Source: Candidatus Falkowbacteria bacterium (GTDB lineage Bacteria; Patescibacteriota; Patescibacteriia; Patescibacteriales; UBA12075). From it: a stretch of 64,000 nt of DNA. Location of the stretch: the NCBI GenBank assembly GCA_043801965.1, contig JAZDLN010000033.1:5113-69112 (forward strand). The letters are read 5' to 3'. The notes under the pieces were generated by a model. That model was not told the origin of the DNA, did no database searches, and saw only the letters and a list, made by a program, of their open reading frames with translations. Below are positions 39,103 through 63,980 of the stretch, piece by piece (position 1 is the stretch's first letter; each line of letters opens with the position of its first letter). Both the position numbers and the translations under genes were made by a program.

Positions 39103-40980
39103 ATGTGCGGAATCGCCGGCTTTTTCGGCCAGGGAGATAAAAACGATCTCGAAAGAATGACTCGGACTATGAATTACCGTGGCCCGAATGATGAAGGTTT
39201 TTTTATGGGCGACAATGTCGGTTTAGGGCAAAGACGGTTATCGATTATTGATCTTAGTCCGGGCGGGCATCAACCTTTGGCTAACGAGGATGAGTCGCTT
39301 TGGATTATTCTGAACGGTGAGATCTATAATTATCTGGAATTGAAAAAAAGTCTTTCTGACAGTCATCGGTTCAGGGGAAATTCCGATACGGAGATAATTC
39401 TCCATCTTTACGAGGAGGTCGGTTTGAAAGTTTTTGAAAAATTGAACGGGATGTTCGCGCTTGCCATTTATGACAGCCGGGAAAGCAGAGTAATCTTGGC
39501 CCGCGACCGATTGGGCAAGAAACCGCTTTACTGGGGCATATTCGACAACACTCTGATTTTCGGTTCGGAACCTAAGGCTTTGCTGGGGCATTCGGCCTGC
39601 AAAAAAGAATTGGACCTGGAATCTTTGAATAAATATCTGCAGTTCGGTTATATCCCTACTCCGTATTCGATTTATAAGAATATCCGCAAACTGGAACCGG
39701 CCAGTTACCTGGTTTATAGCGGCAAAAACGTCGAGAAAAATATTTTTTGGGAAATCAGCTTCGGGGCGGAGGGCACGGAGCGCGTGAAACACGACGAACA
39801 GGATGTAATAGCTGAACTGGATAATAGGCTAGACAGCGCAGTAAGGGATAGGCTCATGAGCGATGTTCCCCTGGGGATATTCTTAAGCGGTGGGATCGAT
39901 TCGAGTACGATAGCCTACTACGCCCAAAAAAATTCTGATCAAAAGATTAAAACTTTTTCTATCGGATTCAAGGAAGCCAGCTTTGATGAATCGCAGTATG
40001 CCCGGCGGGCCGCGGAGCATTTAGGTACGGATCATTACGAAAAGATCCTCGGGGCCGATGATTGTCTTGGTCTGATTTTGCGGATTGCCGGACTTTTGGA
40101 CGAGCCTATGGCCGATCCTTCGATCATTCCGACTTTTTTGTTATCGGAATTCACGCGCGAACGCGTAACAGTGGCTTTGGGCGGCGACGGCGGGGACGAA
40201 CTTTTCTGCGGCTATGATACGTTCGTCGCGCACCGGTTCGCAGAAATTTACAGCCGGATACCGCTAGTATTTAGAAAAGCGCTAATCGAGCCGTTAGTCA
40301 AAAGCCTGCCGACCTCATTTTCCAATCTCAGTCTGGATTTCAAGGCTAAGAGTTTTATTAAAGGTTTTTACGGCGAAGCTAAATATCGCGACGCGCGCTG
40401 GATGGGCGCTTTCAATCGCGCCGAGCGCTCCCTTTTACTAAATCCGGATATTTTGGCCGGTCTGGAAACGGTTAACGAGTTTGCTGATATTGATCATTAT
40501 CTTGTCGGTAAAGAGGATGATTATTATAACAGCTTGATCAAGCTTTATCTCCGGATGTACATGATGGACCAGGTGTTAGTTAAGGTGGACCGGGCCAGCA
40601 TGTACAACGGTCTGGAGGTGCGCGCGCCGTTTTTGGATTACCAGTTGGTCGATTACGTCAATTCTTTGCCGCTTAATTTAAAGCTGCGCGGCTTTAAAAC
40701 CAAGTATATACTAAAAAAACTAATGGAAGACAAATTGCCGCGCGCGATTGTTTACCGTAAAAAGAAGGGCTTCGGCCTACCGGTCGCCGCCTGGATATCC
40801 GGCCCGCTTAAATCATTGGTTCTCAATCTGTTTAGCGAAGAGAAGATCAAGAATCAGGGGCTATTCAACTATAAATACGTCAATAAAATATTAAACAATC
40901 ATTTTTCACGAAAGTGCGATAATCGATTGAAGATTTGGAATTTGATGGTATTCCAGCTTTGGTATGAAAAATGGCTGTGA
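39103..40980 (+). CDS. asparagine synthase (glutamine-hydrolysing)-like amidotransferase
   Basis: 625 aa. It has the N-terminal nucleophile MCGIAGF and the PP-loop FLSGGIDSST. Confidence 0.9.
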   Translation: MCGIAGFFGQGDKNDLERMTRTMNYRGPNDEGFFMGDNVGLGQRRLSIIDLSPGGHQPLANEDESLWIILNGEIYNYLELKKSLSDSHRFRGNSDTEIILHLYEEVGLKVFEKLNGMFALAIYDSRESRVILARDRLGKKPLYWGIFDNTLIFGSEPKALLGHSACKKELDLESLNKYLQFGYIPTPYSIYKNIRKLEPASYLVYSGKNVEKNIFWEISFGAEGTERVKHDEQDVIAELDNRLDSAVRDRLMSDVPLGIFLSGGIDSSTIAYYAQKNSDQKIKTFSIGFKEASFDESQYARRAAEHLGTDHYEKILGADDCLGLILRIAGLLDEPMADPSIIPTFLLSEFTRERVTVALGGDGGDELFCGYDTFVAHRFAEIYSRIPLVFRKALIEPLVKSLPTSFSNLSLDFKAKSFIKGFYGEAKYRDARWMGAFNRAERSLLLNPDILAGLETVNEFADIDHYLVGKEDDYYNSLIKLYLRMYMMDQVLVKVDRASMYNGLEVRAPFLDYQLVDYVNSLPLNLKLRGFKTKYILKKLMEDKLPRAIVYRKKKGFGLPVAAWISGPLKSLVLNLFSEEKIKNQGLFNYKYVNKILNNHFSRKCDNRLKIWNLMVFQLWYEKWL

Positions 40981-41012
40981 TTGCGGTTTGTGCCGCTGTT
41001 AAATAATTTTTT

Positions 41013-42440
41013 ATGAAAATACTTTTAATTTATCCTCCCTCGATCAATAAAATACAGACTCCCGTTCCGGAAGCTGTAAACAGTGTTGTCGGTTTTTATC
41101 CTCCCTTGGGCTTGCTTTGTGTTGCCGGTTATGTCCGGGCTCATAGCGATTTCGGGGTAAAAGTATTGGATGCCCAAGTCGAACGGTTGGATTATGACGG
41201 TATTGCGGAGATTTTAGCGAAAGAACGTCCTGATGTTGTCGGAATCCAGACAATGACGCACACTCTCGTGGACGCCTTAAAAACCGCCGAGGTTACAAAA
41301 AGGATAGATTCAAAATGCCATGTATGTCTGGGCGGTAACCATGTGGAAATATACCCCTTAGAAACTATACAATTGCCAAATGTTGATTCGGCAGTGATTG
41401 GGGAGGGGGAAATTAAATTTCTTAAACTTTGCCAGGCGCTTGCAGCCGATAAGAGTCTTGAGGGGATTCCGGGCGTGATAGCCAGGAATAACGGAAAGAT
41501 TATAAATAATGGTCCGGGGATCCATATCGATAATATTGATGATTTGAATTTTCCAGCCCGCGATTTAGTCCCCTTTAAAAAGTACCAAGGCATAATGGAT
41601 GCTGGAAAAATCATTACCACGCTTATCTCAAGTCGTGGTTGCCCCAATCAATGTGCGTTTTGTTCCGAGGTCGGAACCAGATTCCGGTGGCGTAACGCGA
41701 AAAGTATAGCGGACGAGATCGAAGAATGCCAATCTTTGGGTATTAATGTTTTTTTCTTCTTTGATGATACCTTTAACGCTTACCCGAAACACGCGGTTGA
41801 CGTATGTCAGGAAATCATAAACCGGAAATTAAAAATAGAATTTGATGTGCGGGCAAGAGTAAATAATATAAATGAAGAGTTGTTAATGGCGTTGAAAGCT
41901 GCCGGATGCCGGCGGATTCAATTTGGAGTTGAATCCGGATGCCAGAAGGTTTTACGGGAGCTAAAGAAAAATATTACGCTTGAACAGGTGTCTCAGGCTT
42001 TCGCTATGGCTAAAAAATACCGGTTCGTCACTTACGCTGATTTTATGATCGGTAATCCTGGAGAGGGGCGGGAAGAACTGATGCAGACTTTTGCATTCGC
42101 CAAAGAAATTGACCCGGATTATGTTCAATATTCGGTCTTTACCCCGTACCCAAACACCGCGCTTTATCGGCGGGGCATCAAAGAGGGTTTATTCGGTGAT
42201 TTTTGGCTGGAATACGCTAAGAATCCGACTAACAATTTTATGCCACGGTTATGGGAGGAATATTTTACCAAAGAAGAATTGAATTATTGGATTTCTTTCG
42301 CTTATAAAGATTTTTATCTGCGGCCCAAGTATATTTTAAAGAGTTTGTTTAAAATAGAGTCTTTCCGTGATTTATTAAATAAGATCAATGCTGCCATTAA
42401 GCTTATTTTTATTAAAGGCTTAAAAAATAGCAAAAAATAA
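41013..42440 (+). CDS. B12-binding-domain radical SAM enzyme (class B)
   Basis: 475 aa. It has an N-terminal Rossmann-like B12-binding region and the CxxxCxxC motif SSRGCPNQCAFCSE. Confidence 0.85.
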   Translation: MKILLIYPPSINKIQTPVPEAVNSVVGFYPPLGLLCVAGYVRAHSDFGVKVLDAQVERLDYDGIAEILAKERPDVVGIQTMTHTLVDALKTAEVTKRIDSKCHVCLGGNHVEIYPLETIQLPNVDSAVIGEGEIKFLKLCQALAADKSLEGIPGVIARNNGKIINNGPGIHIDNIDDLNFPARDLVPFKKYQGIMDAGKIITTLISSRGCPNQCAFCSEVGTRFRWRNAKSIADEIEECQSLGINVFFFFDDTFNAYPKHAVDVCQEIINRKLKIEFDVRARVNNINEELLMALKAAGCRRIQFGVESGCQKVLRELKKNITLEQVSQAFAMAKKYRFVTYADFMIGNPGEGREELMQTFAFAKEIDPDYVQYSVFTPYPNTALYRRGIKEGLFGDFWLEYAKNPTNNFMPRLWEEYFTKEELNYWISFAYKDFYLRPKYILKSLFKIESFRDLLNKINAAIKLIFIKGLKNSKK

Positions 42441-42466
42441 TTAGAGCCTTGGTTAGCTACAAAAAT

Positions 42467-43048
42467 ATGTATAATGATTTGAAAAAATTAAACCTTGGTT
42501 CCGGAGAGGATAAAAAAGAAGGATATGTAAATATGGACTGGAATGAATTAACAAAACCGGACATTAAACATGACCTGAGTGAACCGCCTTATCCTTTTAC
42601 TGACGGCTATTTCGATATGATCGAGGCCAACCATATCCTTGAGCACCTAGATAATCCGTTCGTGATTATGAAAGAACTACACCGTCTTTTGAAGCCGGGC
42701 GGTCGGCTGATTGTCCGCGTGCCACATTTCAGCCGTGGCATGACCCACGCTGAACATAAACACGGTTTTGATGTTACTTTCCCGTTGTATTTTGAGAAAA
42801 AAACCGCGGAGTCTGGGTTTTCCGGATATTTTGGTGTTAATTATAAACTGGTTAAACTGGAACTGCATTGGATGAAGTTTTTTAAGGCGCTCGAAGGAAT
42901 GGGTTATGGAAAACTGACTATGAGCATATTACGTTTTCTAAATATTATAATTTCTTCATTGGCCAACCTAAGCCCTAATTTTTGCAGCCGTATTTGGTGT
43001 TTCTGGGTGGGAGGATTTGAGGAGGTCGAATTCATTTTTACTAAGTAA
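42467..43048 (+). CDS. class I SAM methyltransferase (Methyltransf_11-like)
   Basis: LNLGSGEDKKEGYVNMD, FDMIEANHILEHL and PGGRLIVRVP. The track starts at TTG 42449; an in-frame ATG lies at 42467. Confidence 0.65.
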   Translation: MYNDLKKLNLGSGEDKKEGYVNMDWNELTKPDIKHDLSEPPYPFTDGYFDMIEANHILEHLDNPFVIMKELHRLLKPGGRLIVRVPHFSRGMTHAEHKHGFDVTFPLYFEKKTAESGFSGYFGVNYKLVKLELHWMKFFKALEGMGYGKLTMSILRFLNIIISSLANLSPNFCSRIWCFWVGGFEEVEFIFTK

Positions 43049-43069
43049 TACTCCCGCTTGACAACCCTC

Positions 43070-43098: not shown

Positions 43099-43104
43099 TA
43101 TGTG

Positions 43105-43124: not shown

Positions 43125-43187
43125 GTTCTTTTAATTCATAACAAAAGGAGGTGTGTGGGTTAGGAATATTTTACGGTATGGAGTTTT

Positions 43188-44075: not shown

Positions 44076-44109
44076 CCCTCAAAATATAGTTCCAAAACAA
44101 TTCTACACG

Positions 44110-44178: not shown

Positions 44179-45951
44179 ATGATAGATAAATTTATTTACA
44201 AGATAAAAGCAAATTGGCACATCGTTATATTGGCGGCTATTTTCGGATTTTTAATCGTTTTTCCAACGATTTACACCATCCATTCGATCGGTTGGGAAAA
44301 TTTTAGAGGAATTTACCCGGTATTCAATAAAGACGAGGTTCACTATTTGGCTATGACCAAAGAGGTTGCGGACGGATACTCTGGTTTAGGCAACACATTT
44401 ATCGCGGAATATAAAGTAAGTCCTGGCATCCAATCATCTTTGGCCGAAATCATTTTGGCTAGTTGTTCGAAATTATTTCACGTTTCCGTTTCTTTGCTTT
44501 TCGTTATCAATGATTTTTTATCGCCATTTATCGGATTTATCCTGCTTTATATTTTTTTTCGCCGTACAGTCGGCCACGACAGGTTGGCTGTTTTTTTTAC
44601 GGCCCTGTTTTACCTTTTTTTTCTTTATACTTTCGGCCGCCCAATCAATCCGCAATTCAGCTTTATATTCCTGGCTATCGGCCTCATATTAATCGGGGAA
44701 ATTTTTAACGAAAATACGGCGCCCCCACGAAGGATCAAATATGCTCTGGGTTTGGGCGGAATTATTGGAATCCTGGTTTATATTTATCCGTATTTTTGGA
44801 CAGCGCTAGTAGTTTTATTTGTCGTTAATCTGCTTTTAGGCTGGTTTTTATTTCGCAGGATAAACAAATTGAAACCAGCCCTTTTTATGTTGCCGGTTTT
44901 TGCTATTCTGTCCGTTCCGTATATCATAAATAGCTTAAAAGCCGCCACTCACCCGTTTTACGCGGAAACGATCTTGCGTTTCGGTCTCCTTGATACCCAT
45001 TGGCCGGCCTGCTACGTAAATGCCGCCGTCGCTATCTTTACCCTGTTCATTTTATTTCTTTCAAAAAGATGTTTGCGCCGAAGCGATCTGTTTTTCGCCG
45101 CGTCTTTTCCGTTAAGCGCTCTGATTCTCAATTGGCAAAACGTCATCTCTGGGAAATACTTGCAGTTTTCCAGTCATTATTATCAGGTTACGATCCTGTC
45201 CGTCGTGATTTGTTTAGCGATAATATTGAGCCGGATTATCCCGAAAATGAAAAAGAGGGAAGAGAGGCGTGATTATAAAATATTCGTAATTTTAGGATTA
45301 ACGATTTTGCTTTTTGTTTTTATTGCTTATAGACAAAGAGGGGAGATCGTTAAAGGTTTTTACAATCCTTTTCCGGCCGGGCAGGTTGCGGAACTCCAGG
45401 AATTAGCGACGGTTTTCGACTGGCTTAATGAAAATACGGCGCCGGATTCGGTGGTAATGACCAACGATGACGATTTGGCTGGCTATCTGTCCGTTTATAC
45501 ATTGAATAATAATTATAACTTCGGTTATGCCGGTTATTATCTTATATCCGATGACGAAATCGAAGACCGGTGGATCCGACAGAATATTTTCAAGGATAAC
45601 GCCGTTGACAGTGAATACATATTTAATAACAACCGGGGTATCTGGCTTAATAAATTTATCGATAATTACCAGAACAGGACGGTCAGGGAAAAAATATTTA
45701 CTAAATTGACGGGCAAAAACGCAAAAAGCATAGAATATGTTCCTGGTTTTTATATCGACCGGGTGGAGAAAAAATATGAAGAAGTAAAAAAGCAAGAATT
45801 GCTGTCGGCGTTGAAAAAATATAAACTGGATTATATTATTCTGGATAAAGGTAATGGCAAATATGCGGCTATTGACGGGGAGCTGTCAAAATATGACGAG
45901 GTGGACAGAATTGCGGAGATCGGCGAGAGAGTTATTTATCAGATCAAATAA
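44179..45951 (+). CDS. large polytopic membrane protein with C-terminal soluble domain (possible GT-C-like glycosyltransferase or polymerase)
   Basis: 590 aa with about 11 TM helices followed by ~190 soluble residues. No diagnostic motif was recognised. Confidence 0.35.
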   Translation: MIDKFIYKIKANWHIVILAAIFGFLIVFPTIYTIHSIGWENFRGIYPVFNKDEVHYLAMTKEVADGYSGLGNTFIAEYKVSPGIQSSLAEIILASCSKLFHVSVSLLFVINDFLSPFIGFILLYIFFRRTVGHDRLAVFFTALFYLFFLYTFGRPINPQFSFIFLAIGLILIGEIFNENTAPPRRIKYALGLGGIIGILVYIYPYFWTALVVLFVVNLLLGWFLFRRINKLKPALFMLPVFAILSVPYIINSLKAATHPFYAETILRFGLLDTHWPACYVNAAVAIFTLFILFLSKRCLRRSDLFFAASFPLSALILNWQNVISGKYLQFSSHYYQVTILSVVICLAIILSRIIPKMKKREERRDYKIFVILGLTILLFVFIAYRQRGEIVKGFYNPFPAGQVAELQELATVFDWLNENTAPDSVVMTNDDDLAGYLSVYTLNNNYNFGYAGYYLISDDEIEDRWIRQNIFKDNAVDSEYIFNNNRGIWLNKFIDNYQNRTVREKIFTKLTGKNAKSIEYVPGFYIDRVEKKYEEVKKQELLSALKKYKLDYIILDKGNGKYAAIDGELSKYDEVDRIAEIGERVIYQIK

Positions 45952-46014: not shown

Positions 46015-47022
46015 TTAATTTTTTGGGGCGTGACTCAGTCTTTTTAAAATAAATTTCAATATTTTCATCTTGTCCAGTTCTTCATTGTTACTTAAAGGAG
46101 ATTGTCGGAATATTTTCCAGGTATTGCCATATCTTAAGTTCGCGTGACAAACCTCAAGCCAGCGGCCGGAGATTATTTTAATAAATGATTTTATTTCATA
46201 AACTTCGTTTTTACGGTTAGCATCGTCGAGTCTTATTAACCACTTTTCTTTTCTGGTGAGGTAATCTTCCAGGGTATATTCCGGGGGTTTAGATAAAACA
46301 CAGTGCAGAAACAATTCTTTTTCGCTCGGTTCCAGACCGAGTTTTTTCAGTTCTCTAACCCGGATTTGGTTAGCGTTTTTTCCCTGCGTGTCGGCGTGCT
46401 TGTTGCTGATATTGTCCCTAGTTATCCGGTAGAGAAGTAGAATCTCATTAAGGTTGGCGAATACTGTTATGGGCGAGATTCTGGTCCAAAACTCATAGTC
46501 TTCTGCATGAATAAAATCAGGGTTGAAACACAGCTTATGCTCCCTGAACAAGGAAGCACGGAAAATTACGCTTGGATGAGCCATCTGCGTATTAAAAAGA
46601 AAACCGGCCTTGATGTCGTCAGATTTTGTATAATATCTGTTTACGCCGGTCGATTCGCCGAAAGTTTTGACCCAGGTGCCGCAAACGCCGATCTTTGGGT
46701 TTTTATCCATGAAGGCGACTTGTTTTTCGAGGCGTTTGGGCAGACTTATATCGTCAGCGTCCATGCGTGCGATATATTCGCCCTGGGCCAGACTTATGCC
46801 TTTATTGAGAGTAGCGATCAGACGCAGGTTGGTTTCGTTTATTACCAGTCTTATTCTTTTGTCTTTATATGACTCTATTATTTCGCGGCTCAAGTCGGTC
46901 GATCCGTCGTCAATTATCAGAAGTTCAAAGTCTTTGAAGGTTTGTCCAAGAATACTATCTATAGCTTCATTTAGATATTTGGCCGCATTGTAAACCGGCA
47001 TCAGTACCGTGACTTTGGGCAT
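46015..47022 (-). CDS. GT2 family glycosyltransferase
   Basis: VTVLMPVYNAAKYL, IIDDGSTD and RMDADDIS. Confidence 0.85.
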   Translation of the reverse strand: MPKVTVLMPVYNAAKYLNEAIDSILGQTFKDFELLIIDDGSTDLSREIIESYKDKRIRLVINETNLRLIATLNKGISLAQGEYIARMDADDISLPKRLEKQVAFMDKNPKIGVCGTWVKTFGESTGVNRYYTKSDDIKAGFLFNTQMAHPSVIFRASLFREHKLCFNPDFIHAEDYEFWTRISPITVFANLNEILLLYRITRDNISNKHADTQGKNANQIRVRELKKLGLEPSEKELFLHCVLSKPPEYTLEDYLTRKEKWLIRLDDANRKNEVYEIKSFIKIISGRWLEVCHANLRYGNTWKIFRQSPLSNNEELDKMKILKFILKRLSHAPKN

Positions 47023-58358: not shown

Positions 58359-59150
58359 TTAGTTTTTAGGAAAAATATCGTAAGATGTGGCCGCTTCATA
58401 GTTGAGCGGAGTTTTCGAACATACCATTATACGTGATCCGTGCTCTTTTTCGTTTCCCCTCGCGTAGAACAGTATATTTTTCCAGTTTATTTTTCCTGTT
58501 TTTTGCAGATTCAAGATATCGGTCATAAAGTCATGATTTTTCCAGCGCTCTACCATAACCACCTGCTTATTAGCGGAGTTGAAGAGATTGGCCAGGGCGG
58601 TTAAATGGGTGTCGCCTTTGTGTATGTGCATGATTACCGCCATGGTATAAGCGATATCGGCAGACGGGAAAGACGAATCGGTAGTGGCATCACCCACGAA
58701 TATGTTAGCCCTTAGATCGGGGAAAAGTTCATGTAGAAAAGCGATCTGTTCCGGCGAACGATCAAAGCCGCTAAGCCGTATATCGGGGGCAATTACGCTG
58801 ATATTTTTCAGATGCAAGCCGCTGCCGCAGCCCATTTCCAAAACAGAATCGGGTTTCAACTGAAGAATCGTTTCATAAAGAAGGCACCAGAGCGGGTGAA
58901 GCGGTTTTATATTCGTATCCGCCTGTATTAGCCCAGCATCGTTAAAAACGTAATCTTTGGATTTTAACGTTATTGTAAATAATTTTCCGGTTTCCTTTAT
59001 TTCACCCCGGAAATGCAGATTGTAAAGAGACCAGTCGAACATATCCCAACCATCTTTGCCCGTATCCCGGTTAATAATTTTTTTCAGGCTTTTTAGAAGA
59101 TGATACTTAAAAATGTAGAAGTTGGGATAATTTTCTTTGGGCCGGCTCAA
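58359..59150 (-). CDS. class I SAM methyltransferase
   Basis: VLEMGCGSGLH and DIAYTMAVIMH. Confidence 0.65.
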   Translation of the reverse strand: MSRPKENYPNFYIFKYHLLKSLKKIINRDTGKDGWDMFDWSLYNLHFRGEIKETGKLFTITLKSKDYVFNDAGLIQADTNIKPLHPLWCLLYETILQLKPDSVLEMGCGSGLHLKNISVIAPDIRLSGFDRSPEQIAFLHELFPDLRANIFVGDATTDSSFPSADIAYTMAVIMHIHKGDTHLTALANLFNSANKQVVMVERWKNHDFMTDILNLQKTGKINWKNILFYARGNEKEHGSRIMVCSKTPLNYEAATSYDIFPKN

Positions 59151-59180
59151 AAAACTTATTATTTTTTTTGTACATAATTT

Positions 59181-60446
59181 TTATTTGATTTTTTTGTTAA
59201 ACATAAATATATAAAGAAGAAAAACGCTTTCGCATAACTGTACGCCGATAAAGGTATAAGCCATGCCATATAAACCGAAAAGGGGGAGCAGAATAACAAA
59301 CAAGATAATTTTCGAAATATTAGTTATCAATGAAAGAAAATAGAGTAATTTTTGATAACCCTGGGACATCAGCGCAGTATTAAACAGCCCCAAGGGTACC
59401 AACGCTAATGTAATTGCCATTATTCTGGTTAAAGAGACTGATTCAAGATATTGGGGAAATAATATTTTATAGATCCAGGGAGAAACAAAAAAATAAAAAA
59501 TTGATATAGCCGATGTAAGTCCGGTTAGCTTGGCTATTTTAAGCGGTAGTGTTTTTTTAAGGTTGGTGAAGCTGTTTTCGGAAAATTTCGGAAAAGCCAG
59601 GGAGGCTAGGTTTTTCAGGACGAAAGATTTTAACTGGTCCAGCGGAACGAGCGCAAAGGTGTAAATGGCGAGCTCCCCCGCTCCGACGTAATGGAAAATT
59701 ATAATTTTGTCTATGTTTTCCGTTATAGTTGAAAACACTCCCATAAAACTCAAGTGTTTGCCATAGGTTATATTTTCAGGGTCGTAGTTTTGATTCGGTC
59801 GGTATTTTTTGATTGTATATCGCAGAATAAAATAATTGAACGAGATACGACTTGCGAAATACACGAAAATTATCGCCAGTATATTGTCGGTCAGGTAAAT
59901 AGTCGCTATCGTAACGGACGCTACGAATAATTGGGAGATTATTGATATTATTGTAGCGACTCCAAATTTTTTCCGTCCGGACAAAAATGAAGCATATAGA
60001 GCAAAAGCCGTATAAAAGGGGATAAAGGCCGCAATAATCAACAGGCTAATGGCGATTGCGTTGTTATGGTTAAAAAAATAATAGATTGCCATCGAAACGC
60101 CGATTAAACTGCCGATCGCACCCCACTTTATTTTGGTTTTGATCGCAGGCAGTAAAATTCCCTCGTTGCCCTTGGCCACGGCCATGGTTACGGCCGTATG
60201 CATACCGGCCAGGCAGGGGATGGCCAGTATGCCGATAAAAGATAATATAAATTTGTAAAGACCGAAAGTTTCTGGCGGCAAAAAATTCGCAAAAGCGATT
60301 GACGTTAGCCCAGAAGCTAGGATGGAGGCAAACTGTCCGATTGTCAGCCAAAAATTTCCTTTTGCCAGATAGACCATGTCTGTGTGCGTCCATTTTTCCG
60401 TCCACCTGAGAAATCCTATAGTTTTATTTTTAGTTTTTGTCAGCAT
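59181..60446 (-). CDS. wzx: Wzx-type polysaccharide flippase (MOP superfamily)
   Basis: 421 aa with about 12 TM helices. The polysaccharide-biosynthesis-protein-type N-terminus is KGNFWLTIGQFASILASGLTSIAFANFLPPETFGLYKF. Confidence 0.75.
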   Translation of the reverse strand: MLTKTKNKTIGFLRWTEKWTHTDMVYLAKGNFWLTIGQFASILASGLTSIAFANFLPPETFGLYKFILSFIGILAIPCLAGMHTAVTMAVAKGNEGILLPAIKTKIKWGAIGSLIGVSMAIYYFFNHNNAIAISLLIIAAFIPFYTAFALYASFLSGRKKFGVATIISIISQLFVASVTIATIYLTDNILAIIFVYFASRISFNYFILRYTIKKYRPNQNYDPENITYGKHLSFMGVFSTITENIDKIIIFHYVGAGELAIYTFALVPLDQLKSFVLKNLASLAFPKFSENSFTNLKKTLPLKIAKLTGLTSAISIFYFFVSPWIYKILFPQYLESVSLTRIMAITLALVPLGLFNTALMSQGYQKLLYFLSLITNISKIILFVILLPLFGLYGMAYTFIGVQLCESVFLLYIFMFNKKIK

Positions 60447-60449
60447 GTA

Positions 60450-60725
60450 TTACCAGCGGTTGATTTTTTCAACTACCGCCTTTTTTATTTTCAGATAGGA
60501 ATTTGTCGCCTTTTTCTCTACTTCCGGCGAAACTAAACGCAGGATCTCTTTGCCGAGGATCCGGTATTGTCCACCCACCTTATTGGCCTTAATAAGCCCT
60601 TTTTTAAGCAACCGCTTAATCGTGCTGTTGCTTATTTTCAGGAGTTCCTGGGTCTCTTCGGTAGTATAAACGGCATTGGATTTTATTTCTTGAGTCATAT
60701 AAATAAGTATATCACATAGTATCAA
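60450..60725 (-). CDS. excisionase/MerR-type helix-turn-helix DNA-binding protein
   Basis: YTTEETQELLKISNSTIKRLLKKGLIKANKVGGQYRI is HTH_17-like. The track start is TTG 60725; an in-frame ATG (MTQEIK) lies at 60698. Confidence 0.7.
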   Translation of the reverse strand: MILCDILIYMTQEIKSNAVYTTEETQELLKISNSTIKRLLKKGLIKANKVGGQYRILGKEILRLVSPEVEKKATNSYLKIKKAVVEKINRW

Positions 60726-60764
60726 AAGGGGTCAACAAGTATCAAGATGTTTATGTTTTGATAT
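60718..60764. promoter_or_regulatory. candidate operator: AGTATCAA direct repeat (20-nt spacing) plus inverted TTGATAT
   Basis: agtatcaa occurs at 60718-60725 and 60738-60745, and ttgatat at 60758-60764. It sits in the only real spacer of the minus-strand cluster, just upstream of the HTH gene. Confidence 0.35.
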
Positions 60765-60784
60765 GTTTTTTATTGTACATTGTT

Positions 60785-61774
60785 TTACACCCACCTTTTT
60801 AGCCGGTTAGAAATTTTTTCGACAAAAGTTCCGGATAGCATTGATTCGGGAAATAGAGTAACGGCCCTTTTGCTATTTTCCGTGAAAAGCGGCATTTTTT
60901 CAATTAAGTCACAAAGCATGGGAAACAAATTATATTTATCGAGTATAAGATTTTTCGCCTTTTTTATTTCTGCAACTGATCGTTCGTAAAGTCCGCCTTC
61001 GATCGTGCGGTCGATAATTTTTATCGCTTCCGCTGGTTTCGATATGTTTATCGGGGCCAGAGAGCCCTTTGAGAAATAATGGAAAATGTTCGGGCAGCCA
61101 TAATATATCGGATAAGCGCCCGCAAGAAAACAATCAGAAAGTTTTTCTGTCCAATAATCATTTTGGGCGCTATTTTCAAGGACAATGTGGTATTTGTAGG
61201 GTGCAATAACATCCCATTTATCTGCAAAGGTGTTAAGATTTCGGCCGTAGATATCGATTTTACCCACAAAATGCTTTTTTAATATTTTTATAAATTTAAT
61301 TCTTTGTTTAAGCCCACGCGTATAAGCCTTATCAGATGATATCGCAGAAATTAATTTCGTTTTTTCGATGTTGTCCGCCGCTTTAAGGTCATCGTAACTT
61401 TTTTGCGTATAATTTTGATTTTTGTCTCCGGGTTCGTATTTCCAGCCCACCATCCAAGGTAGAGCCTGTTGGCTATTGATCGTATTGGAACGATTAAGGT
61501 AATGCGATGTTATTATTGTGTTAAATTGATTAACAAACGTTCGTTTATACTTCTTTTTACCGGGTGGCTCAGACGTTATCAGAATGGTATTTTTTGGTGG
61601 GCAATCAGCCGTTTCAATTTTTCTAAGACCGTCAATAATTACCCAATAATCACATTGTCCAATGGCGTCATCATTGATGAAAAAACGGCAGTTCCCCCAG
61701 ACACCTTTCGATTCAGGGGTTTGCCGAATTAAGGGCCAATGAGGAAAGTTGGTCGTGATTTTAATACGTAACAT
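60785..61774 (-). CDS. GT10 alpha-1,3/4-fucosyltransferase-like
   Basis: YKYHIVLENSAQNDYWTEKLSDCFLAGAYPIYYGCPN matches the GT10 C-terminal motif (FENS...DY(V/W)TEK...P(I/V)Y.G). Confidence 0.75.
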   Translation of the reverse strand: MLRIKITTNFPHWPLIRQTPESKGVWGNCRFFINDDAIGQCDYWVIIDGLRKIETADCPPKNTILITSEPPGKKKYKRTFVNQFNTIITSHYLNRSNTINSQQALPWMVGWKYEPGDKNQNYTQKSYDDLKAADNIEKTKLISAISSDKAYTRGLKQRIKFIKILKKHFVGKIDIYGRNLNTFADKWDVIAPYKYHIVLENSAQNDYWTEKLSDCFLAGAYPIYYGCPNIFHYFSKGSLAPINISKPAEAIKIIDRTIEGGLYERSVAEIKKAKNLILDKYNLFPMLCDLIEKMPLFTENSKRAVTLFPESMLSGTFVEKISNRLKRWV

Positions 61775-62577
61775 TATGTTGCAGATTTAAGATATCGTTT
61801 TAACGGAGACATCCGAAATCGGAGAGTCCGTATTATGTTATTTTTTGAATAAAATCTGGTATCGATTTCCCTGTTTACCGTGCGGTCTAAATCGCCATCG
61901 ACAAATGGATGTTTGGTAATTGTGGTAGAGACGTTAAAAACGTGGTTTTTAATTTTTTTATGCATATTGCGATCGGTTACGAAAAGCGCATCACTGCCCA
62001 CCCGGACAGATTTAATATAGCCGTACGGTTTTAAGATATTCGTAATCCCTTTTTCCTGCTTTCTGGTTTTTATTTCGATAAGCAGCGCGCGCGGTTTGAC
62101 TTTGTTGAAATCCATACCTAGAAGCGCCTCAGTTTCGTGACCCTCGATATCGAGAGACATGATGTCGACGGATTTTACATCGTGTTCGTCAAACAGGCTT
62201 TGGAGTGTTTTTTGTTTAACGGTCATTTCCTTGAAGTCTGACTTTTTTTTGTCGTGATTTTTGAGCTCCTGTTCGTTTAGCGGATTGAGCGTTGATAAGC
62301 TGCACATGGTATCGGCGTATAGGGTTACTTTGTTTTTATTTTTATCGGACGCCGCGCAATGGCATACGATACTATTGGGCCGATTTTTTTTTATAAGTTC
62401 GACGTAGTCGTCGTGCGGCTCGACTAACAGGCCGCGCCAGCCCATTTTTTCAAAAATTAAAGTATTGCTGAGGTGCTTACCATCCACACAGCCGACCTCG
62501 ACAAAATAACCGTCTTTTTGATCTTTGAACAATTGGTATAAAATATAATCTTGACCGTATTGGCTATAGAAATGCAT
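61774..62577 (-). CDS. FkbM family methyltransferase
   Basis: GYFVEVGCVDGKHLSNTLIFEKMGWRGLLVEP. Confidence 0.8.
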   Translation of the reverse strand: MHFYSQYGQDYILYQLFKDQKDGYFVEVGCVDGKHLSNTLIFEKMGWRGLLVEPHDDYVELIKKNRPNSIVCHCAASDKNKNKVTLYADTMCSLSTLNPLNEQELKNHDKKKSDFKEMTVKQKTLQSLFDEHDVKSVDIMSLDIEGHETEALLGMDFNKVKPRALLIEIKTRKQEKGITNILKPYGYIKSVRVGSDALFVTDRNMHKKIKNHVFNVSTTITKHPFVDGDLDRTVNREIDTRFYSKNNIIRTLRFRMSPLKRYLKSAT

Positions 62578-62589
62578 AAAAGTCTTTAG

Positions 62590-63366
62590 TTATTTTATAA
62601 AATTTTTTATATCTTCGTTACTGTTTATTATTACATCTCTTATTTTTTCATACTTAGGTGTATCTAAGATAACATCAAGAATCAATTTAGCAATATTTTC
62701 TGGCATGATCAGATGTTTGTCGCCATGTTTTTGTCTGGCGATTTCAAGTAATTTTTCCGGAAAAGCTTTCACTAAGCCTGTTTCCACGAACGAGGGAAAA
62801 ATATTATAAATTTTAATGCCGAATTTGTTCATTTCCGCGCCAATACTTCGGGAAAGCCCCCAGAGCCCGTATTTTGCCGTGACGTAAGGGAGCATGCGCG
62901 GCGGGGGAGTTTCGTCCAATACGGTTGAGGTAATGAAGTTGATAATAAGACCGCCGTTTTTGTTTTTTTTCATTATCGGTATTACCTCTTTGTATAATCT
63001 AAAAGCTCCCAATATCGTTAAATCAATTTCTTTTTGAAAATCGGCTTCATCAAAAAAATCAAATTGTTTTAAATTAAGCTTATTGGCAGCAGCGTTTATG
63101 ATAATGTCCAGCTTTTCGTCACTGGCGATAATATCGGCTATAGCGGACTTTACGCTCTCCGCCTCCAATAAGTTGAAGTAAATATTCTTGTATCCCTTTC
63201 CGGAATTATGGATTCCACGGTTATTTTTAATTCCGCCCGCATAAACCTCAATATTGTTTTCTGAGAGTAGTTTCGATATCGCCGAACCGATTCCGCCGGT
63301 TCCGCCGATTATTAATGCGTTTTTTTTCGGCATATTTTTATAAGACGATAACTTTGGCTTCGCCAT
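62590..63366 (-). CDS. short-chain dehydrogenase/reductase (FabG-like)
   Basis: ALIIGGTGGIGSAI and YVTAKYGLWGL (YxxxK). The start is probably the internal ATG at 63333 (MPKKNALII). Confidence 0.8.
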   Translation of the reverse strand: MAKPKLSSYKNMPKKNALIIGGTGGIGSAISKLLSENNIEVYAGGIKNNRGIHNSGKGYKNIYFNLLEAESVKSAIADIIASDEKLDIIINAAANKLNLKQFDFFDEADFQKEIDLTILGAFRLYKEVIPIMKKNKNGGLIINFITSTVLDETPPPRMLPYVTAKYGLWGLSRSIGAEMNKFGIKIYNIFPSFVETGLVKAFPEKLLEIARQKHGDKHLIMPENIAKLILDVILDTPKYEKIRDVIINSNEDIKNFIK

Positions 63367-63739
63367 CTATGGCAGTATGGCCATTTTTTATTATTTTGGT
63401 TTTCAGGGTTATCATATTAGAATTCTCGTTTTTTTGAATTACCTCGGCTGTGGCAGTTAACTTTTCTTCGTAAAATATGGGTTGGCGGAAATTCATGGTT
63501 TGACTTAAATAAAGAGCATTTTCTCCGGGACAGCGCATGCCGACTAAGGCGGAAAAAAGGCTTCCGGCCAAAAGGCCGTAAACGATATTGTCTTCGAATT
63601 TACTTTGTGCGCCGAAGTCCGCGTCCAGGTGCAGTTTATTAAAATCACCGGAAAGCCGCGCGAAATCACGCCCATCTTGTCGGGTAAATTTCCTTTCGAG
63701 AGAAAAAATATCGCCTATGCTTATATCTTCAAATTTCAT
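63338..63739 (-). CDS. MaoC-like (R)-hydratase/dehydratase, hotdog fold
   Basis: DGRDFARLSGDFNKLHLDADFGAQSKF. 133 aa. Confidence 0.75.
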   Translation of the reverse strand: MKFEDISIGDIFSLERKFTRQDGRDFARLSGDFNKLHLDADFGAQSKFEDNIVYGLLAGSLFSALVGMRCPGENALYLSQTMNFRQPIFYEEKLTATAEVIQKNENSNMITLKTKIIKNGHTAIDGEAKVIVL

Positions 63740-63746
63740 AAGATTA

Positions 63747-63980
63747 TTATTCGAGTTTTACGCTGTGACGCCCCAGGGCCGCTTTTATGTCTTTAAAACT
63801 TCTGACGGACACAACTTCGTCCATGGAGAATTTTATGTTGTAAGCGTTTTCCAGTTCAGAAACCATCATCAGACCATTGAACGAATCCCAGCTTCCGATT
63901 GTTTCGGGGGAGGTATCATCGGTTATATCATTTTCGCTTATTTCGAGAATTTTGGCTATGAGTTTTTTCAGATTTTGCAT
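63747..63980 (-). CDS. acyl carrier protein
   Basis: 77 aa. The phosphopantetheine-attachment-like motif is IGSWDSFNGLMMVSELE. Confidence 0.7.
   Translation of the reverse strand: MQNLKKLIAKILEISENDITDDTSPETIGSWDSFNGLMMVSELENAYNIKFSMDEVVSVRSFKDIKAALGRHSVKLE

What the first reader, a model, noticed from the sequence alone, without database searches (positions are those of the whole stretch)
39103..63980. Glycan island with four class-B (B12-binding) radical SAM enzymes plus many SAM methyltransferases, a carbamoyltransferase and an AsnB-like amidotransferase
Seen:

- Four paralogous B12-binding-domain radical SAM genes lie at 41013, 47027, 51148 and 56675. Each has a CxxxCxxC motif after an N-terminal Rossmann-like domain.
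- They are interleaved with GT2, GT11, GT10 and CgeB-like transferases.
- Also present are a NodU/CmcH carbamoyltransferase, an AsnB-like amidotransferase, a DegT aminotransferase, a GNAT, a Wzx flippase, and class I and FkbM methyltransferases.
- Counting the pilus-locus enzymes, the window encodes at least nine SAM methyltransferase-type genes in addition to the four radical SAM genes.

Established: class-B radical SAM enzymes typically methylate unactivated carbon or phosphorus centres (GenK, Fom3, TsrM-type chemistry). Their roles in surface-glycan loci are essentially uncharacterised.

Inference: the product would be an exceptionally decorated surface or pilin glycan that is C- and O-methylated, carbamoylated, amidated and N-acylated. 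For a presumably small genome this is a very large investment. No corrinoid biosynthesis or uptake gene is visible in the window.
Basis: partly seen in the sequence, partly recalled or inferred. Interest (0 to 1): 0.6.

Follow-up and report, generated by a model that had tools for sequence, protein, structure and literature searches.

The report
Radical SAM enzymes in glycan locus
A surface-sugar gene island in an ultra-small (Candidatus Falkowbacteria) bacterium carries four different B12-type radical SAM enzymes that are tightly coupled, and in relatives physically fused, to glycosyltransferases, which points to an uncharacterised, recurrent kind of radical chemistry on cell-surface sugars.

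Summary
All four genes (41013, 47027, 51148, 56675) encode an N-terminal B12-binding domain, a radical SAM core and CxxxCxxC. They sit among GT2, GT10, GT11 and CgeB-like transferases, AsnB, a carbamoyltransferase, DegT, GNAT, Wzx and methyltransferases.

They are old paralogs (27-32% identity). Each belongs to its own orthogroup, conserved at about 41-83% identity. Three orthogroups span several phyla; the rSAM3 loci are unnamed metagenome contigs.

None reaches the curated cutoff of any characterised family. The nearest are HpnJ, BchE, ApyD and PhpK by profile, and AprD4, OxsB, MgmA and TsrM by structure.

The new evidence is comparative:
- rSAM2 is fused to its neighbouring GT2 in a relative.
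- rSAM3-like proteins occur fused to FkbM, GT2 or GT4.
- The cassettes MT-rSAM4-DegT-epimerase-GNAT-GT-rSAM3-GT11 and GT11-rSAM2-GT2/unk590 recur in other Patescibacteria.
- rSAM1 orthologs usually directly follow a polyprenyl-phosphate-type GT2, often with overlapping stop and start codons.

So these are glycan- or glycolipid-tailoring radical enzymes, and the island is native rather than chimeric. C-methylation is the likeliest chemistry but is not shown; ring contraction or dehydration remain open. The locus starts at about 31657, not 39103. I found no paper that describes this association.

The parts
31657..37377 (+). Upstream part of the glycan locus: three GT4 genes (31657, 33082, 34540) and two polyprenyl-phosphate-type GT2 genes (35711, ArnC/PgfS-like; 36694, PpgS/AglJ-like)
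   Evidence: Pfam; NCBIfam. GT4 orthologs (41-46% identity) lie next to the rSAM2::GT2 fusion in L089.
37382..39091 (+). PMT_2 (GT-C type) membrane glycosyltransferase
   Evidence: Pfam (37.7 bits, cutoff 26.1). Orthologs (36-44% identity) recur beside unk590 in 8 related loci.
39103..40980 (+). AsnB-type glutamine amidotransferase
   Evidence: Pfam. NCBIfam asn_synth_AEB 484.7 bits against a cutoff of 267. The AsnB->MT11->unk590 block is conserved in L098, L108 and L110.
41013..42440 (+). rSAM1: B12-binding-domain radical SAM enzyme, 475 aa. It belongs to a large cross-phylum orthogroup that normally follows a GT2 directly.
42449..43048 (+). Class I SAM methyltransferase (MT11)
   Evidence: Pfam; orthologs at 50-66% identity in L098, L108 and L110
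43188..44075 (+). Predicted secreted or anchored protein, with no family match. It has one N-terminal hydrophobic segment.
44179..45951 (+). unk590: membrane protein with about 10 TM helices and a C-terminal soluble domain, no family match. It is a conserved partner of the locus and a candidate GT-C or polymerase.
   Evidence: Hydropathy; no Pfam or PDB hit; orthologs at 35-43% identity in 13 related loci, convergent on GT2c
46015..47022 (-). GT2c: Leloir-type GT2 (EpsE/TuaG/PglI-like). It is the fusion partner of rSAM2 in a relative.
   Evidence: P0149 residues 513-840 are 41% identical to it
47027..48496 (-). rSAM2: B12-binding-domain radical SAM enzyme, 489 aa
48499..49365 (-). GT11-family glycosyltransferase
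   Evidence: Pfam; present in 21 of 35 rSAM3 loci
49362..51134 (-). NodU/CmcH-type carbamoyltransferase
   Evidence: Pfam; 87% identical ortholog in the same position in L095 and L096
51148..52638 (-). rSAM3: B12-binding-domain radical SAM enzyme, 496 aa
52635..56678 (-). Amino-sugar cassette: DegT aminotransferase, Fcl-like epimerase/reductase, GNAT, and a CgeB-like GT-B transferase
   Evidence: Pfam, NCBIfam; syntenic in L092/L098 at 45-70% identity
56675..58339 (-). rSAM4: B12-binding-domain radical SAM enzyme, 554 aa, with a conserved C-terminal Cys4 beta-domain
58359..60446 (-). Class I methyltransferase (MT25) and Wzx-type flippase
   Evidence: Pfam; MT25 orthologs in 10 related loci
60785..63980 (-). 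GT10-like transferase and FkbM methyltransferase, followed by SDR, MaoC dehydratase and an acyl carrier protein (probable acyl side-chain supply)
   Evidence: Pfam; ORF

Best explanation
The region is the larger part of a surface-glycan (or glycoconjugate) biosynthesis island of at least 32 kb, native to a Candidatus Falkowbacteria (Patescibacteria) genome.

It holds four class-B-type radical SAM enzymes from four different, individually conserved orthogroups. I propose that they work as sugar-tailoring enzymes inside the assembly line.

**Proposed mechanism (inferred).** Each enzyme uses its [4Fe-4S]/SAM site to make a 5'-deoxyadenosyl radical. The radical abstracts a hydrogen from an unactivated carbon of a sugar residue. 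The sugar has just been, or is about to be, placed on a polyprenyl-phosphate-linked intermediate by the adjacent glycosyltransferase. The most likely outcome is transfer of a methyl group from methylcobalamin bound in the N-terminal domain, which is C-methylation. An alternative outcome is a rearrangement, dehydration or ring contraction.

**Likely pairings.**
- rSAM2 acts with GT2c and GT11.
- rSAM3 acts between a variable upstream glycosyltransferase and GT11.
- rSAM4 acts with the DegT/epimerase/GNAT amino-sugar branch.
- rSAM1 belongs to a pan-phylum family that normally acts on the product of a polyprenyl-phosphate-sugar synthase (a GT2 of the ArnC/AglJ/PpgS type). That product is then used by a GT-C enzyme such as PMT_2.

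**Other tailoring.** Class I, FkbM and TylF methyltransferases, the carbamoyltransferase, AsnB, and GNAT with its ACP/MaoC/SDR partners add O- or N-methyl, carbamoyl, amide and acyl groups. Wzx then flips the product outward.

**Shown:** domain content, orthogroups, synteny, fusions, operon packing.

**Inferred:** substrate class (strongly), cobalamin use (moderately), type of chemistry (weakly).
For: 1. **Domains and motifs:**
2. **Tight operon.** From Wzx (60446) to GT2c (46015) no intergenic gap exceeds 30 nt, and there are five overlaps: three of 4 nt (CgeB-like GT/rSAM3, rSAM4/DegT, CarbT/GT11), one of 11 nt (DegT/epimerase) and one of 37 nt (GNAT/CgeB-like GT). This comes from the coordinates.
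3. **Gene fusions.**
   - P0149 (843 aa) is an rSAM2 ortholog (59% identity) fused to a GT2c ortholog (41%).
   - P0361 is an rSAM3 ortholog (55%) fused to an FkbM methyltransferase.
   - P0444 is GT2 fused to a B12-type radical SAM enzyme, and P0446 is GT4 fused to one.
   - P0197 is a B12-type radical SAM enzyme fused to a TylF-type methyltransferase.
4. **Synteny.**
   - L092/L098 (Parcubacteria) carries MT25, rSAM4 (63%), DegT (70%), epimerase (63%), GNAT (45%), GT (67%), rSAM3 (60%), GT11, GT2c, then convergent unk590, MT11 and AsnB.
   - L095/L096 carries rSAM3 (70%), CarbT (87%), GT11, rSAM2 (83%), GT2c (75%), then convergent unk590 and PMT2.
   - Among 35 rSAM3 loci, GT11 is present in 21, GT2c in 20, unk590 in 13 and rSAM2 in 12.
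5. **rSAM1 family.**
   - 562 relatives were found in GTDB genomes; the best 80 come from many phyla.
   - A GT2 similar to the window's GT2a or GT2b lies within 6 kb in up to 66 of those 80 loci.
   - The immediately upstream gene is typically about 285 aa on the same strand and often overlaps by 1 or 4 nt.
   - The sampled partner GT2 scores best against AglJ, Dol-P-hexose transferase, ArnC and PpgS.
   - The downstream neighbour is a class I methyltransferase in 23 of 61 loci, LPG_synthase_TM in 10, and another radical SAM enzyme in 7, six of them with a B12-binding domain.
6. **rSAM4 orthologs sit in polysaccharide loci** in Omnitrophica (Wzx, Bac_transf, Wzy_C) and Brocadiaceae.
7. **Cobalamin domain.** PF02310 scores are about twice the cutoff. 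In phmmer alignments the N-terminal domains match the cobalamin binders TokK, OxsB, CysS, TsrM and MgmA, while similarity to AprD4 is confined to the radical SAM core.
[quoted passage not shown] The best profile hit of rSAM2, ApyD, is a C-beta methylase.
Against: - None of the four reaches the curated cutoff of any characterised family; the best scores are 22-33% of the cutoff.
- The top profile hits for rSAM1, rSAM3 and rSAM4 are HpnJ (ring contraction proposed from genetics only), followed by BchE (a cyclase) for rSAM1 and rSAM3 and by PhpK for rSAM4.
- The best PDB sequence hit for rSAM1 and rSAM2 is AprD4, which is also the best TM-score for the rSAM1 model. AprD4 does not bind cobalamin and dehydrates a sugar diol.
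- rSAM4 lacks the His of the GGxH motif that is present in the other three.
- No initiating phosphoglycosyltransferase, clear Wzy polymerase or 4,6-dehydratase was found in the window.
- No corrinoid acquisition gene was found in the window.
- The closest rSAM1 homolog outside near-identical sequences (71% identity, Aminicenantes) sits next to SPASM/PqqD/ABC genes and not next to a GT2.
- In the window rSAM1 has been inserted into an AsnB-MT11 block that exists without it elsewhere. Its local partner is therefore uncertain.
Confidence: 0.72

Rival explanations
1. The enzymes do tailor glycans but are not methylases. They would catalyse a rearrangement, dehydration or ring contraction of sugars with no net methyl transfer. 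Examples of such chemistry are AprD4-like 1,2-diol dehydration that yields deoxy-keto sugars (which DegT could then aminate), or HpnJ/Cds/OxsB-like ring contraction that yields carbocyclic or contracted residues.
For: - AprD4 is the best PDB hit for rSAM1 and rSAM2 (E 4e-24 and 1e-29). It also gives the best TM-score for the rSAM1 model (0.72/0.75).
- HpnJ is the top NCBIfam hit for rSAM1, rSAM3 and rSAM4.
- The recurrent GT2 -> rSAM1 (-> Polysacc_deac_1 / LPG_synthase_TM) arrangement parallels HpnI (GT2), HpnK (deacetylase) and HpnJ acting on a lipid-linked glucosamine.
- rSAM4 overlaps the DegT aminotransferase by 4 nt, and no 4,6-dehydratase is visible to supply a keto sugar.
- OxsB is the best PDB hit for rSAM3.
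Against: - All scores lie far below the family cutoffs.
- Similarity to AprD4 is limited to the radical SAM core, whereas the N-terminal domains align to true cobalamin binders.
- Most characterised class-B enzymes are methylases.
- The activities of HpnJ and Cds are inferred from genetics only.
Confidence: 0.3
2. At least rSAM1, and possibly others, modifies a membrane glycolipid head group or a polyprenyl-phosphate monosaccharide donor. This would be a three-component, Arn/Gtr-like pathway that decorates a wall polymer, lipid or protein, and not a Wzx-exported repeat-unit glycan.
For: - The partner GT2 resembles polyprenyl-phosphate sugar synthases (AglJ, Dol-P-hexose transferase, ArnC, PpgS).
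- Neighbours include LPG_synthase_TM, Polysacc_deac_1 (an ArnD analogue), PMT/PMT_2 and YfhO GT-C enzymes.
- In the window, GT2a, GT2b and PMT_2 lie on the same strand just upstream.
Against: - In the window rSAM1 is not adjacent to a GT2. It sits inside an AsnB-MT11-unk590 block that occurs without it elsewhere.
- No GtrA-type or LPG_synthase_TM flippase is present in the window.
- GT2 hits are well below the equivalog cutoffs.
Confidence: 0.35
3. The island is foreign: a mis-binned or chimeric assembly segment, or a very recent horizontal acquisition. In that case it says nothing about Falkowbacteria biology.
For: - GC falls from about 0.48 (1-32 kb) to about 0.40 (32-64 kb).
- A tRNA-Ser lies at 29019-29106, just upstream.
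- rSAM1 has a 71% identical homolog in an Aminicenantes genome.
Against: - Low-GC, tRNA-flanked glycan islands are ordinary.
- The taxon-named homologs closest to rSAM2 and rSAM4, and the loci that share whole cassettes (L090, L092/L098), are labelled Patescibacteria or Parcubacteria. The rSAM3 metagenome loci carry no taxon label.
- All four proteins are recorded on one 72,769-bp NCBI contig labelled Candidatus Falkowbacteria.
- Gene orientation and density are continuous across the GC shift.
Confidence: 0.05
4. The radical SAM enzymes act on a peptide or protein, for example a pilin, a surface protein or a RiPP-like precursor, and not on sugars.
For: - ApyD (a RiPP methylase) is the top profile hit for rSAM2.
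- MgmA (a protein glutamine methylase) is the best PDB hit for rSAM4.
- The Aminicenantes rSAM1 homolog is next to PqqD/SPASM genes.
- A secreted protein of unknown function (43188-44075) lies in the locus.
Against: - The enzymes occur fused to GT2, GT4, FkbM and TylF domains.
- Across the loci examined (80 for rSAM1, 35 for rSAM3, a few each for rSAM2 and rSAM4) the neighbours are glycosyltransferases and sugar-nucleotide enzymes.
- No RRE/PqqD domain or precursor-like gene is present in the window.
Confidence: 0.07

Closest known systems
GenK / GenD1 / Fms7 / MoeK5 (cobalamin-dependent radical SAM C-methyltransferases acting on sugars of aminoglycoside and moenomycin natural products)
   Same: Same two-domain architecture (B12-binding domain plus radical SAM core). 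The substrate is a carbohydrate, and they sit in clusters with aminotransferases and glycosyltransferases. These enzymes are listed as Csp3 methylases in the 2026 review.
   Different: - Those act in secondary-metabolite pathways of actinomycetes; these lie in Wzx-type surface-glycan loci of Patescibacteria and other uncultivated anaerobes.
- I made no direct sequence comparison with GenK or GenD1, because they are absent from NCBIfam hits above threshold and from the PDB.
- The window proteins reach no curated family cutoff.
HpnJ (with HpnI GT2 and HpnK deacetylase) of hopanoid biosynthesis, and calditol synthase Cds
   Same: HpnJ is the best NCBIfam profile for rSAM1, rSAM3 and rSAM4. The logic of a GT2 followed by a radical SAM enzyme acting on a lipid-linked sugar matches the conserved GT2-rSAM1 pair, which is sometimes accompanied by a deacetylase.
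   Different: - Scores are 130-192 bits against a cutoff of 577.6.
- The host phyla (Patescibacteria, DPANN) are not known, to my knowledge, to make hopanoids; this was not checked here.
- There is no HpnK (YdjC) in the window.
- HpnJ chemistry is itself inferred from knockouts only.
AprD4 (radical SAM 1,2-diol dehydratase of apramycin biosynthesis, PDB 6FD2)
   Same: It is the best solved-structure sequence hit for rSAM1 and rSAM2 and gives the best TM-score for the rSAM1 model. Its substrate is an amino sugar.
   Different: - AprD4 does not bind cobalamin.
- Sequence similarity covers only the radical SAM core.
- The NCBIfam AprD4 score is 111-115 bits against a cutoff of 500.
- No AprD3-like partner reductase is adjacent.
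ArnC-ArnD-ArnE/F-ArnT and GtrA/B/C-type three-component glycosylation systems
   Same: GT2a (35711) scores best against ArnC and PgfS over its full length. GT2b scores best against PpgS and AglJ. A PMT_2 GT-C enzyme follows them. Related loci add Polysacc_deac_1 and a flippase-like LPG_synthase_TM.
   Different: To my knowledge no radical SAM enzyme is part of any described Arn- or Gtr-type system; this was not checked here. No flippase of those types is present in the window. GT2 scores are below the equivalog cutoffs.

Membership tests
Class B (cobalamin-dependent) radical SAM enzymes | Radical SAM core with a CxxxCxxC [4Fe-4S] motif | tested here: met
   PF04055 scores 64-105 bits in all four proteins. 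One CxxxCxxC each, at residues 210, 220, 210 and 212. The motif cysteines are invariant in the two families aligned, rSAM1 and rSAM4.
Class B (cobalamin-dependent) radical SAM enzymes | N-terminal Rossmann-type B12-binding domain | tested here: met
   PF02310 scores 59-80 bits against a cutoff of 32.1. AF2 models of rSAM1 and rSAM4 superpose on TsrM, OxsB, TokK, CysS and MgmA with TM 0.52-0.72.
Class B (cobalamin-dependent) radical SAM enzymes | Actual cobalamin binding and cobalamin-dependent turnover | not testable with these tools
   No universal binding motif exists, and DxHxxG is absent. AprD4 and ArsL show that domain homology is not sufficient.
Class B radical SAM methyltransferases (GenK/Fom3/TsrM-type chemistry) | Membership of a characterised methylase clade | tested here: not met
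   PhpK, HpnR, KedN5, the MCR glutamine C-methylase, the tryptophan 2-C-methylase, ApyD and Sden_1168 all score far below their cutoffs. The best case is ApyD, at 211 bits against 750.
HpnJ (TIGR03471) | Score at or above the curated cutoff of 577.6 bits, in a hopanoid gene context | tested here: not met
   Scores are 191.8, 181.9, 166.8 and 130.0 bits. No hpn genes are in the window.
AprD4 family diol dehydratase (NF033070) | Score at or above the curated cutoff of 500 bits | tested here: not met
   Scores are 110.7, 115.3 and 84.8 bits, and rSAM4 has no hit.
Wzx/Wzy-dependent surface polysaccharide locus | Wzx flippase, several glycosyltransferases and sugar-nucleotide tailoring genes | tested here: met
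   Polysacc_synt scores 83.5 bits. The locus also has GT2 x3, GT4 x3, GT10, GT11, Glyco_trans_1_2, DegT, an epimerase and a GNAT.
Wzx/Wzy-dependent surface polysaccharide locus | Initiating phosphoglycosyltransferase and Wzy polymerase | tested here: inconclusive
   No Bac_transf or WecA domain appeared in any ORF scanned. The only Wzy_C protein is at 9927-12272, in the pilus locus. unk590 is an unassigned 10-TM protein. The contig continues 8.7 kb beyond the window.
Three-component polyprenyl-phosphate-sugar glycosylation (ArnC/GtrB GT2 + flippase + GT-C) | Polyprenyl-phosphate sugar synthase GT2 and a GT-C transferase | tested here: inconclusive
   GT2a against ArnC scores 195.6 bits (cutoff 529). 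GT2b against PpgS scores 105.6 bits (cutoff 370). PMT_2 is above its Pfam cutoff. No flippase of this type was found.

The most novel reading that the evidence does not exclude
Four uncharacterised orthogroups of cobalamin-type radical SAM enzymes form a widespread glycan-tailoring toolkit. It is found in Patescibacteria and, for three of the orthogroups, also in Planctomycetota/anammox and Omnitrophota; rSAM1 and rSAM4 also have archaeal relatives. These enzymes would install carbon-linked methyl groups, or carbocyclic or deoxygenated residues, on lipid-linked surface sugars. Such modifications have not been described in bacterial surface glycans made by this route. In ultra-small symbionts the chemistry would depend on cobalamin scavenged from hosts or neighbours.
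Probability: 0.35. Interest if true: 0.8.

Novelty: new variant of a known kind. Interest (0 to 1): 0.58.

Why it matters
[quoted passage not shown] Fusion and synteny evidence now tie several large, conserved groups to glycosyltransferases. This gives a concrete substrate class (lipid-linked or nucleotide sugars) for biochemistry.
- **Possible new sugar chemistry.** If the enzymes C-methylate or rearrange sugars, they add new chemistry to prokaryotic cell surfaces. Reported '+14 Da' sugar modifications may then need re-examination. An example is the heavily methylated S-layer O-glycan of the anammox bacterium Kuenenia, where the methyl positions are unknown.
- **Biology of ultra-small bacteria.** For Patescibacteria, the finding suggests that surface-glycan diversity matters enough to justify several costly, oxygen-sensitive and probably cobalamin-dependent enzymes. 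Surface glycans are likely central to host attachment and phage evasion.

Tried and rejected
1. **Retrieving the source contig.** Exact-sequence look-ups for rSAM1 failed twice. The organism label comes instead from the NCBI name attached to the 100% identical cluster entries.
2. **Assigning the four enzymes to characterised clades.** NCBIfam gave many partial hits, none above a cutoff. PDB sequence search and Foldseek on two confident AF2 models returned the generic class-B fold, with AprD4, TsrM, OxsB, CysS and MgmA all at similar scores. This does not discriminate between chemistries.
3. **Literature.** Four searches on the link between class-B radical SAM enzymes and polysaccharide, O-antigen or Patescibacteria glycan loci, and one on radical SAM enzymes in the Candidate Phyla Radiation, found nothing relevant. 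The 2026 class review does not mention glycans. Subscription-only papers were not searchable.
4. **Recent tandem duplication.** Rejected: pairwise identity is 27-32%, and each gene has closer orthologs in other genomes and, for three of the four, in other phyla.
5. **The rSAM1-MT11 pair as the conserved GT2-rSAM-MT operon.** Rejected as stated. MT11 belongs to an AsnB-MT11-unk590 block found without rSAM1 in L098, L108 and L110, so the adjacency may be secondary.
6. **unk590 and unk295.** No Pfam, NCBIfam or PDB match even at E=1.
7. **Corrinoid genes.** None were found among the scanned ORFs of the window. The rest of the genome could not be examined.

Full report
**1. What is in the sequence**

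- Four genes (41013-42440 +, 47027-48496 -, 51148-52638 -, 56675-58339 -) each encode an N-terminal PF02310 B12-binding domain (59-80 bits, cutoff 32.1) and a PF04055 radical SAM core (64-105 bits).
- Each has a single CxxxCxxC at residue 210-220. None has the DxHxxG motif.
- Around them lie AsnB, two class I methyltransferases, a Leloir-type GT2, GT11, a NodU/CmcH carbamoyltransferase, a CgeB-like GT-B, GNAT, an Fcl-like epimerase/reductase, DegT, Wzx, a GT10-like transferase and FkbM.
- At the end of the region lie SDR, MaoC and an acyl carrier protein at 63747-63980.
- Two genes have no family match. 43188-44075 encodes a protein with a single N-terminal hydrophobic segment. 44179-45951 encodes a membrane protein with about 10 TM helices and a soluble C-terminal domain.

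On the minus strand, the run from Wzx (60446) to GT2c (46015) has no gap above 30 nt and five overlaps: three of 4 nt, one of 11 nt and one of 37 nt. It therefore reads as one transcription unit (coordinates).

**2. Corrections to the observation**

- The glycan locus starts earlier, at about 31657. That stretch holds three GT4, an ArnC/PgfS-like GT2 (35711), a PpgS/AglJ-like GT2 (36694) and a PMT_2 GT-C enzyme (37382).
- The locus runs off the window. The NCBI contig is 72,769 bp.
- GC drops from about 0.48 to about 0.40 near 32 kb, and a tRNA-Ser lies at 29019-29106. This is the usual signature of a glycan island.
- Pfam supports eight SAM methyltransferase genes in the window, or nine if PilD is counted.
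- No corrinoid-related domain appeared in any ORF scanned.

**3. The four enzymes are four families, not recent copies**

Pairwise identity among the four is 27-32%. Each has much closer relatives elsewhere.

- **rSAM1** belongs to a very large family of about 470 aa.
  - It sits at a plateau of about 45% identity across Brocadia, other Planctomycetota, Nitrospira, Elusimicrobia, Omnitrophota, Chloroflexota, FCPU426, Saccharibacteria, Nealsonbacteria, Iainarchaeum and Methanosarcinales.
  - One Aminicenantes homolog is 71% identical.
- **rSAM2** has orthologs at 51-83% identity. Those that carry a taxon name are Patescibacteria, plus one from Sedimentisphaerales.
- **rSAM3** has orthologs at 47-70% identity in 35 metagenome loci. 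It has 5,688 relatives below E=1e-30 among 1.84 billion representative proteins.
- **rSAM4** orthologs (41-63% identity, about 550 aa) occur in Parcubacteria, Methanoperedens, Planctomycetes, Omnitrophica, Brocadiaceae, Riflebacteria and Dependentiae. They carry an invariant C-terminal Cys4 motif (C464, C467, C488, C491) in a beta-rich domain.

The 100% identical database entries are labelled 'MAG: Candidatus Falkowbacteria bacterium'.

**4. Evidence that they work on glycans**

*(a) Gene fusions.*
- P0149 (843 aa) is an rSAM2 ortholog (residues 1-483, 59% identity) fused to an ortholog of the very GT2 that follows rSAM2 in the window (residues 513-840, 41% identity).
- Relatives of rSAM3 are fused to an FkbM methyltransferase (P0361, 55% identity), to a GT2 (P0444) or to a GT4 (P0446).
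- P0197 is fused to a TylF-type methyltransferase.

*(b) Synteny within Patescibacteria.*
- L092/L098 repeats this order: MT25, rSAM4 (63%), DegT (70%), epimerase (63%), GNAT (45%), CgeB-like GT (67%), rSAM3 (60%), GT11 (52%), GT2c, then convergent unk590, MT11 (66%) and AsnB (67%).
- L095/L096 has rSAM3 (70%), carbamoyltransferase (87%), GT11, rSAM2 (83%), GT2c (75%), then convergent unk590 and PMT2.
- L090 has DegT, GT11, rSAM2, GT2c, then convergent unk590.
- Across the 35 rSAM3 loci, many of them short, GT11 occurs in 21, GT2c in 20, unk590 in 13, rSAM2 in 12, and MT25 and GT10 in 10 each.

*(c) Context of rSAM4 in other phyla.*
- In Omnitrophica it lies with Wzx, GT2s, FkbM, Bac_transf and Wzy_C.
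- In Brocadiaceae it lies with DegT, epimerases, a split transketolase, GT2, an ABC exporter and two further B12-type radical SAM enzymes.

*(d) The rSAM1 family.*
- Among the 80 best loci from GTDB genomes, a GT2 similar to the window's GT2b or GT2a lies within 6 kb in up to 66.
- The immediately upstream gene is usually about 285 aa on the same strand. Its stop often overlaps the rSAM1 start by 1 or 4 nt.
- The Brocadia partner GT2 scores best against AglJ, Dol-P-hexose transferase, ArnC and PpgS. These are polyprenyl-phosphate sugar synthases.
- The downstream neighbour is a class I methyltransferase in 23 of 61 loci, LPG_synthase_TM in 10, and another radical SAM enzyme in 7, six of them with a B12-binding domain.
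- Individual loci add Polysacc_deac_1, PMT and YfhO.

In the window itself, rSAM1 sits between AsnB and MT11. Those two genes are adjacent without it in L098, L108 and L110. It therefore looks like an insertion into a conserved block, with candidate GT2 partners 4-5 kb upstream.

**5. How unusual is four?**

Within loci of at least 10 kb centred on rSAM3 orthologs (17.5 kb at most), 10 of 18 have two class-B radical SAM genes and 2 have three. Around rSAM1 orthologs, 12 of 65 have two or three. L005 (Falkowbacteria) has three in a row, and L094 (Brocadiaceae) has three. Four in 25 kb is the highest count I saw, but the phenomenon is recurrent.

**6. What chemistry?**

This could not be settled.

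- NCBIfam gives only sub-threshold hits, listed here as score/cutoff in bits:
  - rSAM1: HpnJ 192/578, BchE 184/481.
  - rSAM2: ApyD 211/750, BchE 184, HpnJ 182.
  - rSAM3: HpnJ 167, BchE 147, PhpK 143.
  - rSAM4: HpnJ 130, PhpK 127.
- ApyD is a tyrosine C-beta methylase.
- HpnJ is proposed, from knockouts only, to contract the glucosamine ring of a GT2-made, deacetylated lipid-linked sugar. Cds is its archaeal analogue.
- In the PDB, the best sequence hits are AprD4 (rSAM1, rSAM2), OxsB and CysS (rSAM3), and MgmA (rSAM4). MgmA was identified.
- AF2 models of rSAM1 (pLDDT 89) and rSAM4 (pLDDT 88) superpose about equally on TsrM, AprD4, MgmA, OxsB, TokK and CysS. AprD4 gives the best TM-score for rSAM1, at 0.72/0.75.
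- AprD4 does not bind cobalamin. However, sequence similarity to AprD4 covers only the radical SAM core, while the N-terminal domains align with true cobalamin binders. This mildly favours cobalamin use.
- The 2026 review states that non-methylating members show no features that distinguish them from alkylating ones. It also states that every group with a characterised member includes C-methyltransferases.

My estimates, given a glycan-tailoring role, are about 0.5 for C-methylation and about 0.3 for rearrangement, dehydration or ring contraction. The remainder is other chemistry or mixed across the four enzymes.

**7. Model**

A polyprenyl-phosphate-linked oligosaccharide is built by GT4, GT2, GT10, GT11 and CgeB-like transferases. 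The sugars include a 4-amino-6-deoxyhexose-type residue made by DegT and the epimerase and N-acylated by GNAT, possibly with an acyl group supplied by ACP, MaoC and SDR.

Tailoring comes from the radical SAM enzymes, which act beside their cognate transferases, and from O/N-methyltransferases, the carbamoyltransferase and AsnB. Wzx then flips the product.

In parallel or in addition, ArnC/PpgS-like GT2s make polyprenyl-phosphate monosaccharides for the GT-C enzymes PMT_2 and perhaps unk590.

The acceptor is unknown. One candidate transferase is a Wzy_C/TPR protein (9927-12272), which lies inside the type IV pilus locus and next to TylF, three class I methyltransferases and an MBOAT. A similar protein abuts the triple-rSAM locus in L005/L006. 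This would point to protein (pilin?) O-glycosylation, but it was not tested. No initiating phosphoglycosyltransferase was found in the window.

**8. Known or new?**

- Class-B radical SAM enzymes that act on sugars are known from natural-product pathways: GenK, GenD1, Fms7 and MoeK5 (listed).
- HpnJ and Cds act on lipid-linked sugars.
- I found no description of such enzymes as conserved, glycosyltransferase-fused components of surface-glycan loci. The searchable library omits most subscription journals.
- I class this as a new variant of a known kind: known enzyme class, known locus type, uncharacterised conserved families in a new functional setting.
- One lead is the Kuenenia S-layer O-glycan. 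It carries several methyl groups of unknown position and an unidentified 174-Da 'dimethyl-deoxyhexose'. Brocadiaceae relatives carry these enzymes.

**9. Verdict**

Chimerism is unlikely.

Interest is moderate to high, mainly because the fusion and synteny evidence turns a large set of orphan radical SAM enzymes into a testable biochemical problem.

Noticed in passing
window 9927-18620: Inside the type IV pilus locus lies a 781-aa Wzy_C (O-antigen-ligase/PglL-type) + TPR protein. It is followed by a TylF methyltransferase, three class I methyltransferases, an MBOAT, an unknown 345-aa protein and another methyltransferase, just before PilD and the pilins. A similar Wzy_C/TPR protein abuts the triple-rSAM locus in L005/L006. 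It may be an O-oligosaccharyltransferase that links the glycan island to pilin or surface-protein glycosylation.
   Followed up: partly
window 29019-29106 and 29151-31462: tRNA-Ser(GGA) is followed by two ORFs with no family match and a Fic-domain protein. This lies immediately before the GC drop and the start of the glycan genes, and looks like a genomic-island boundary.
   Followed up: no
window 56675-58339 (protein residues 441-498): The rSAM4 family has an invariant Cys4 motif (C464, C467, C488, C491) in a predicted beta-rich C-terminal domain. This could be a zinc ribbon or a rubredoxin-like metal site. Pfam matched it weakly to a primase zinc ribbon.
   Followed up: partly
P0369 (relative of rSAM3): A 731-aa rSAM3-like protein carries an intein with an HNH endonuclease, inserted between the B12-binding domain and the radical SAM domain (about residues 202-467).
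   Followed up: no
L001/L009 (Aminicenantes contig): The closest rSAM1 homolog outside near-identical sequences (71% identity) lies next to an ABC exporter, DUF354, NTP_transf_5, two radical SAM proteins (one SPASM), PqqD and ScmC, and not next to a GT2. This suggests horizontal transfer between phyla and possibly a different substrate there.
   Followed up: no
window 43188-44075: A 295-aa protein with an N-terminal hydrophobic anchor or signal, a Ser/Asp-rich middle and an Asp-rich C-terminal stretch (DYNGDSYIDSQDIIDLKND) that resembles a calcium-binding, dockerin-like repeat. It has no database family. In L098 a 274-aa ORF with no match to any window protein occupies the same position.
   Followed up: no
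L089 649-2308 and L094 3426-5203: Split transketolase-like genes (N and C halves) sit next to epimerases in related glycan loci that carry B12-type radical SAM enzymes. This hints at two-carbon branched or extended sugars in those relatives. They are absent from the window.
   Followed up: no
window 62590-63980: SDR, MaoC dehydratase and an acyl carrier protein sit at the edge of the window. They probably supply a hydroxyacyl or enoyl group for N-acylation of the amino sugar. The pathway continues beyond the window end.
   Followed up: partly
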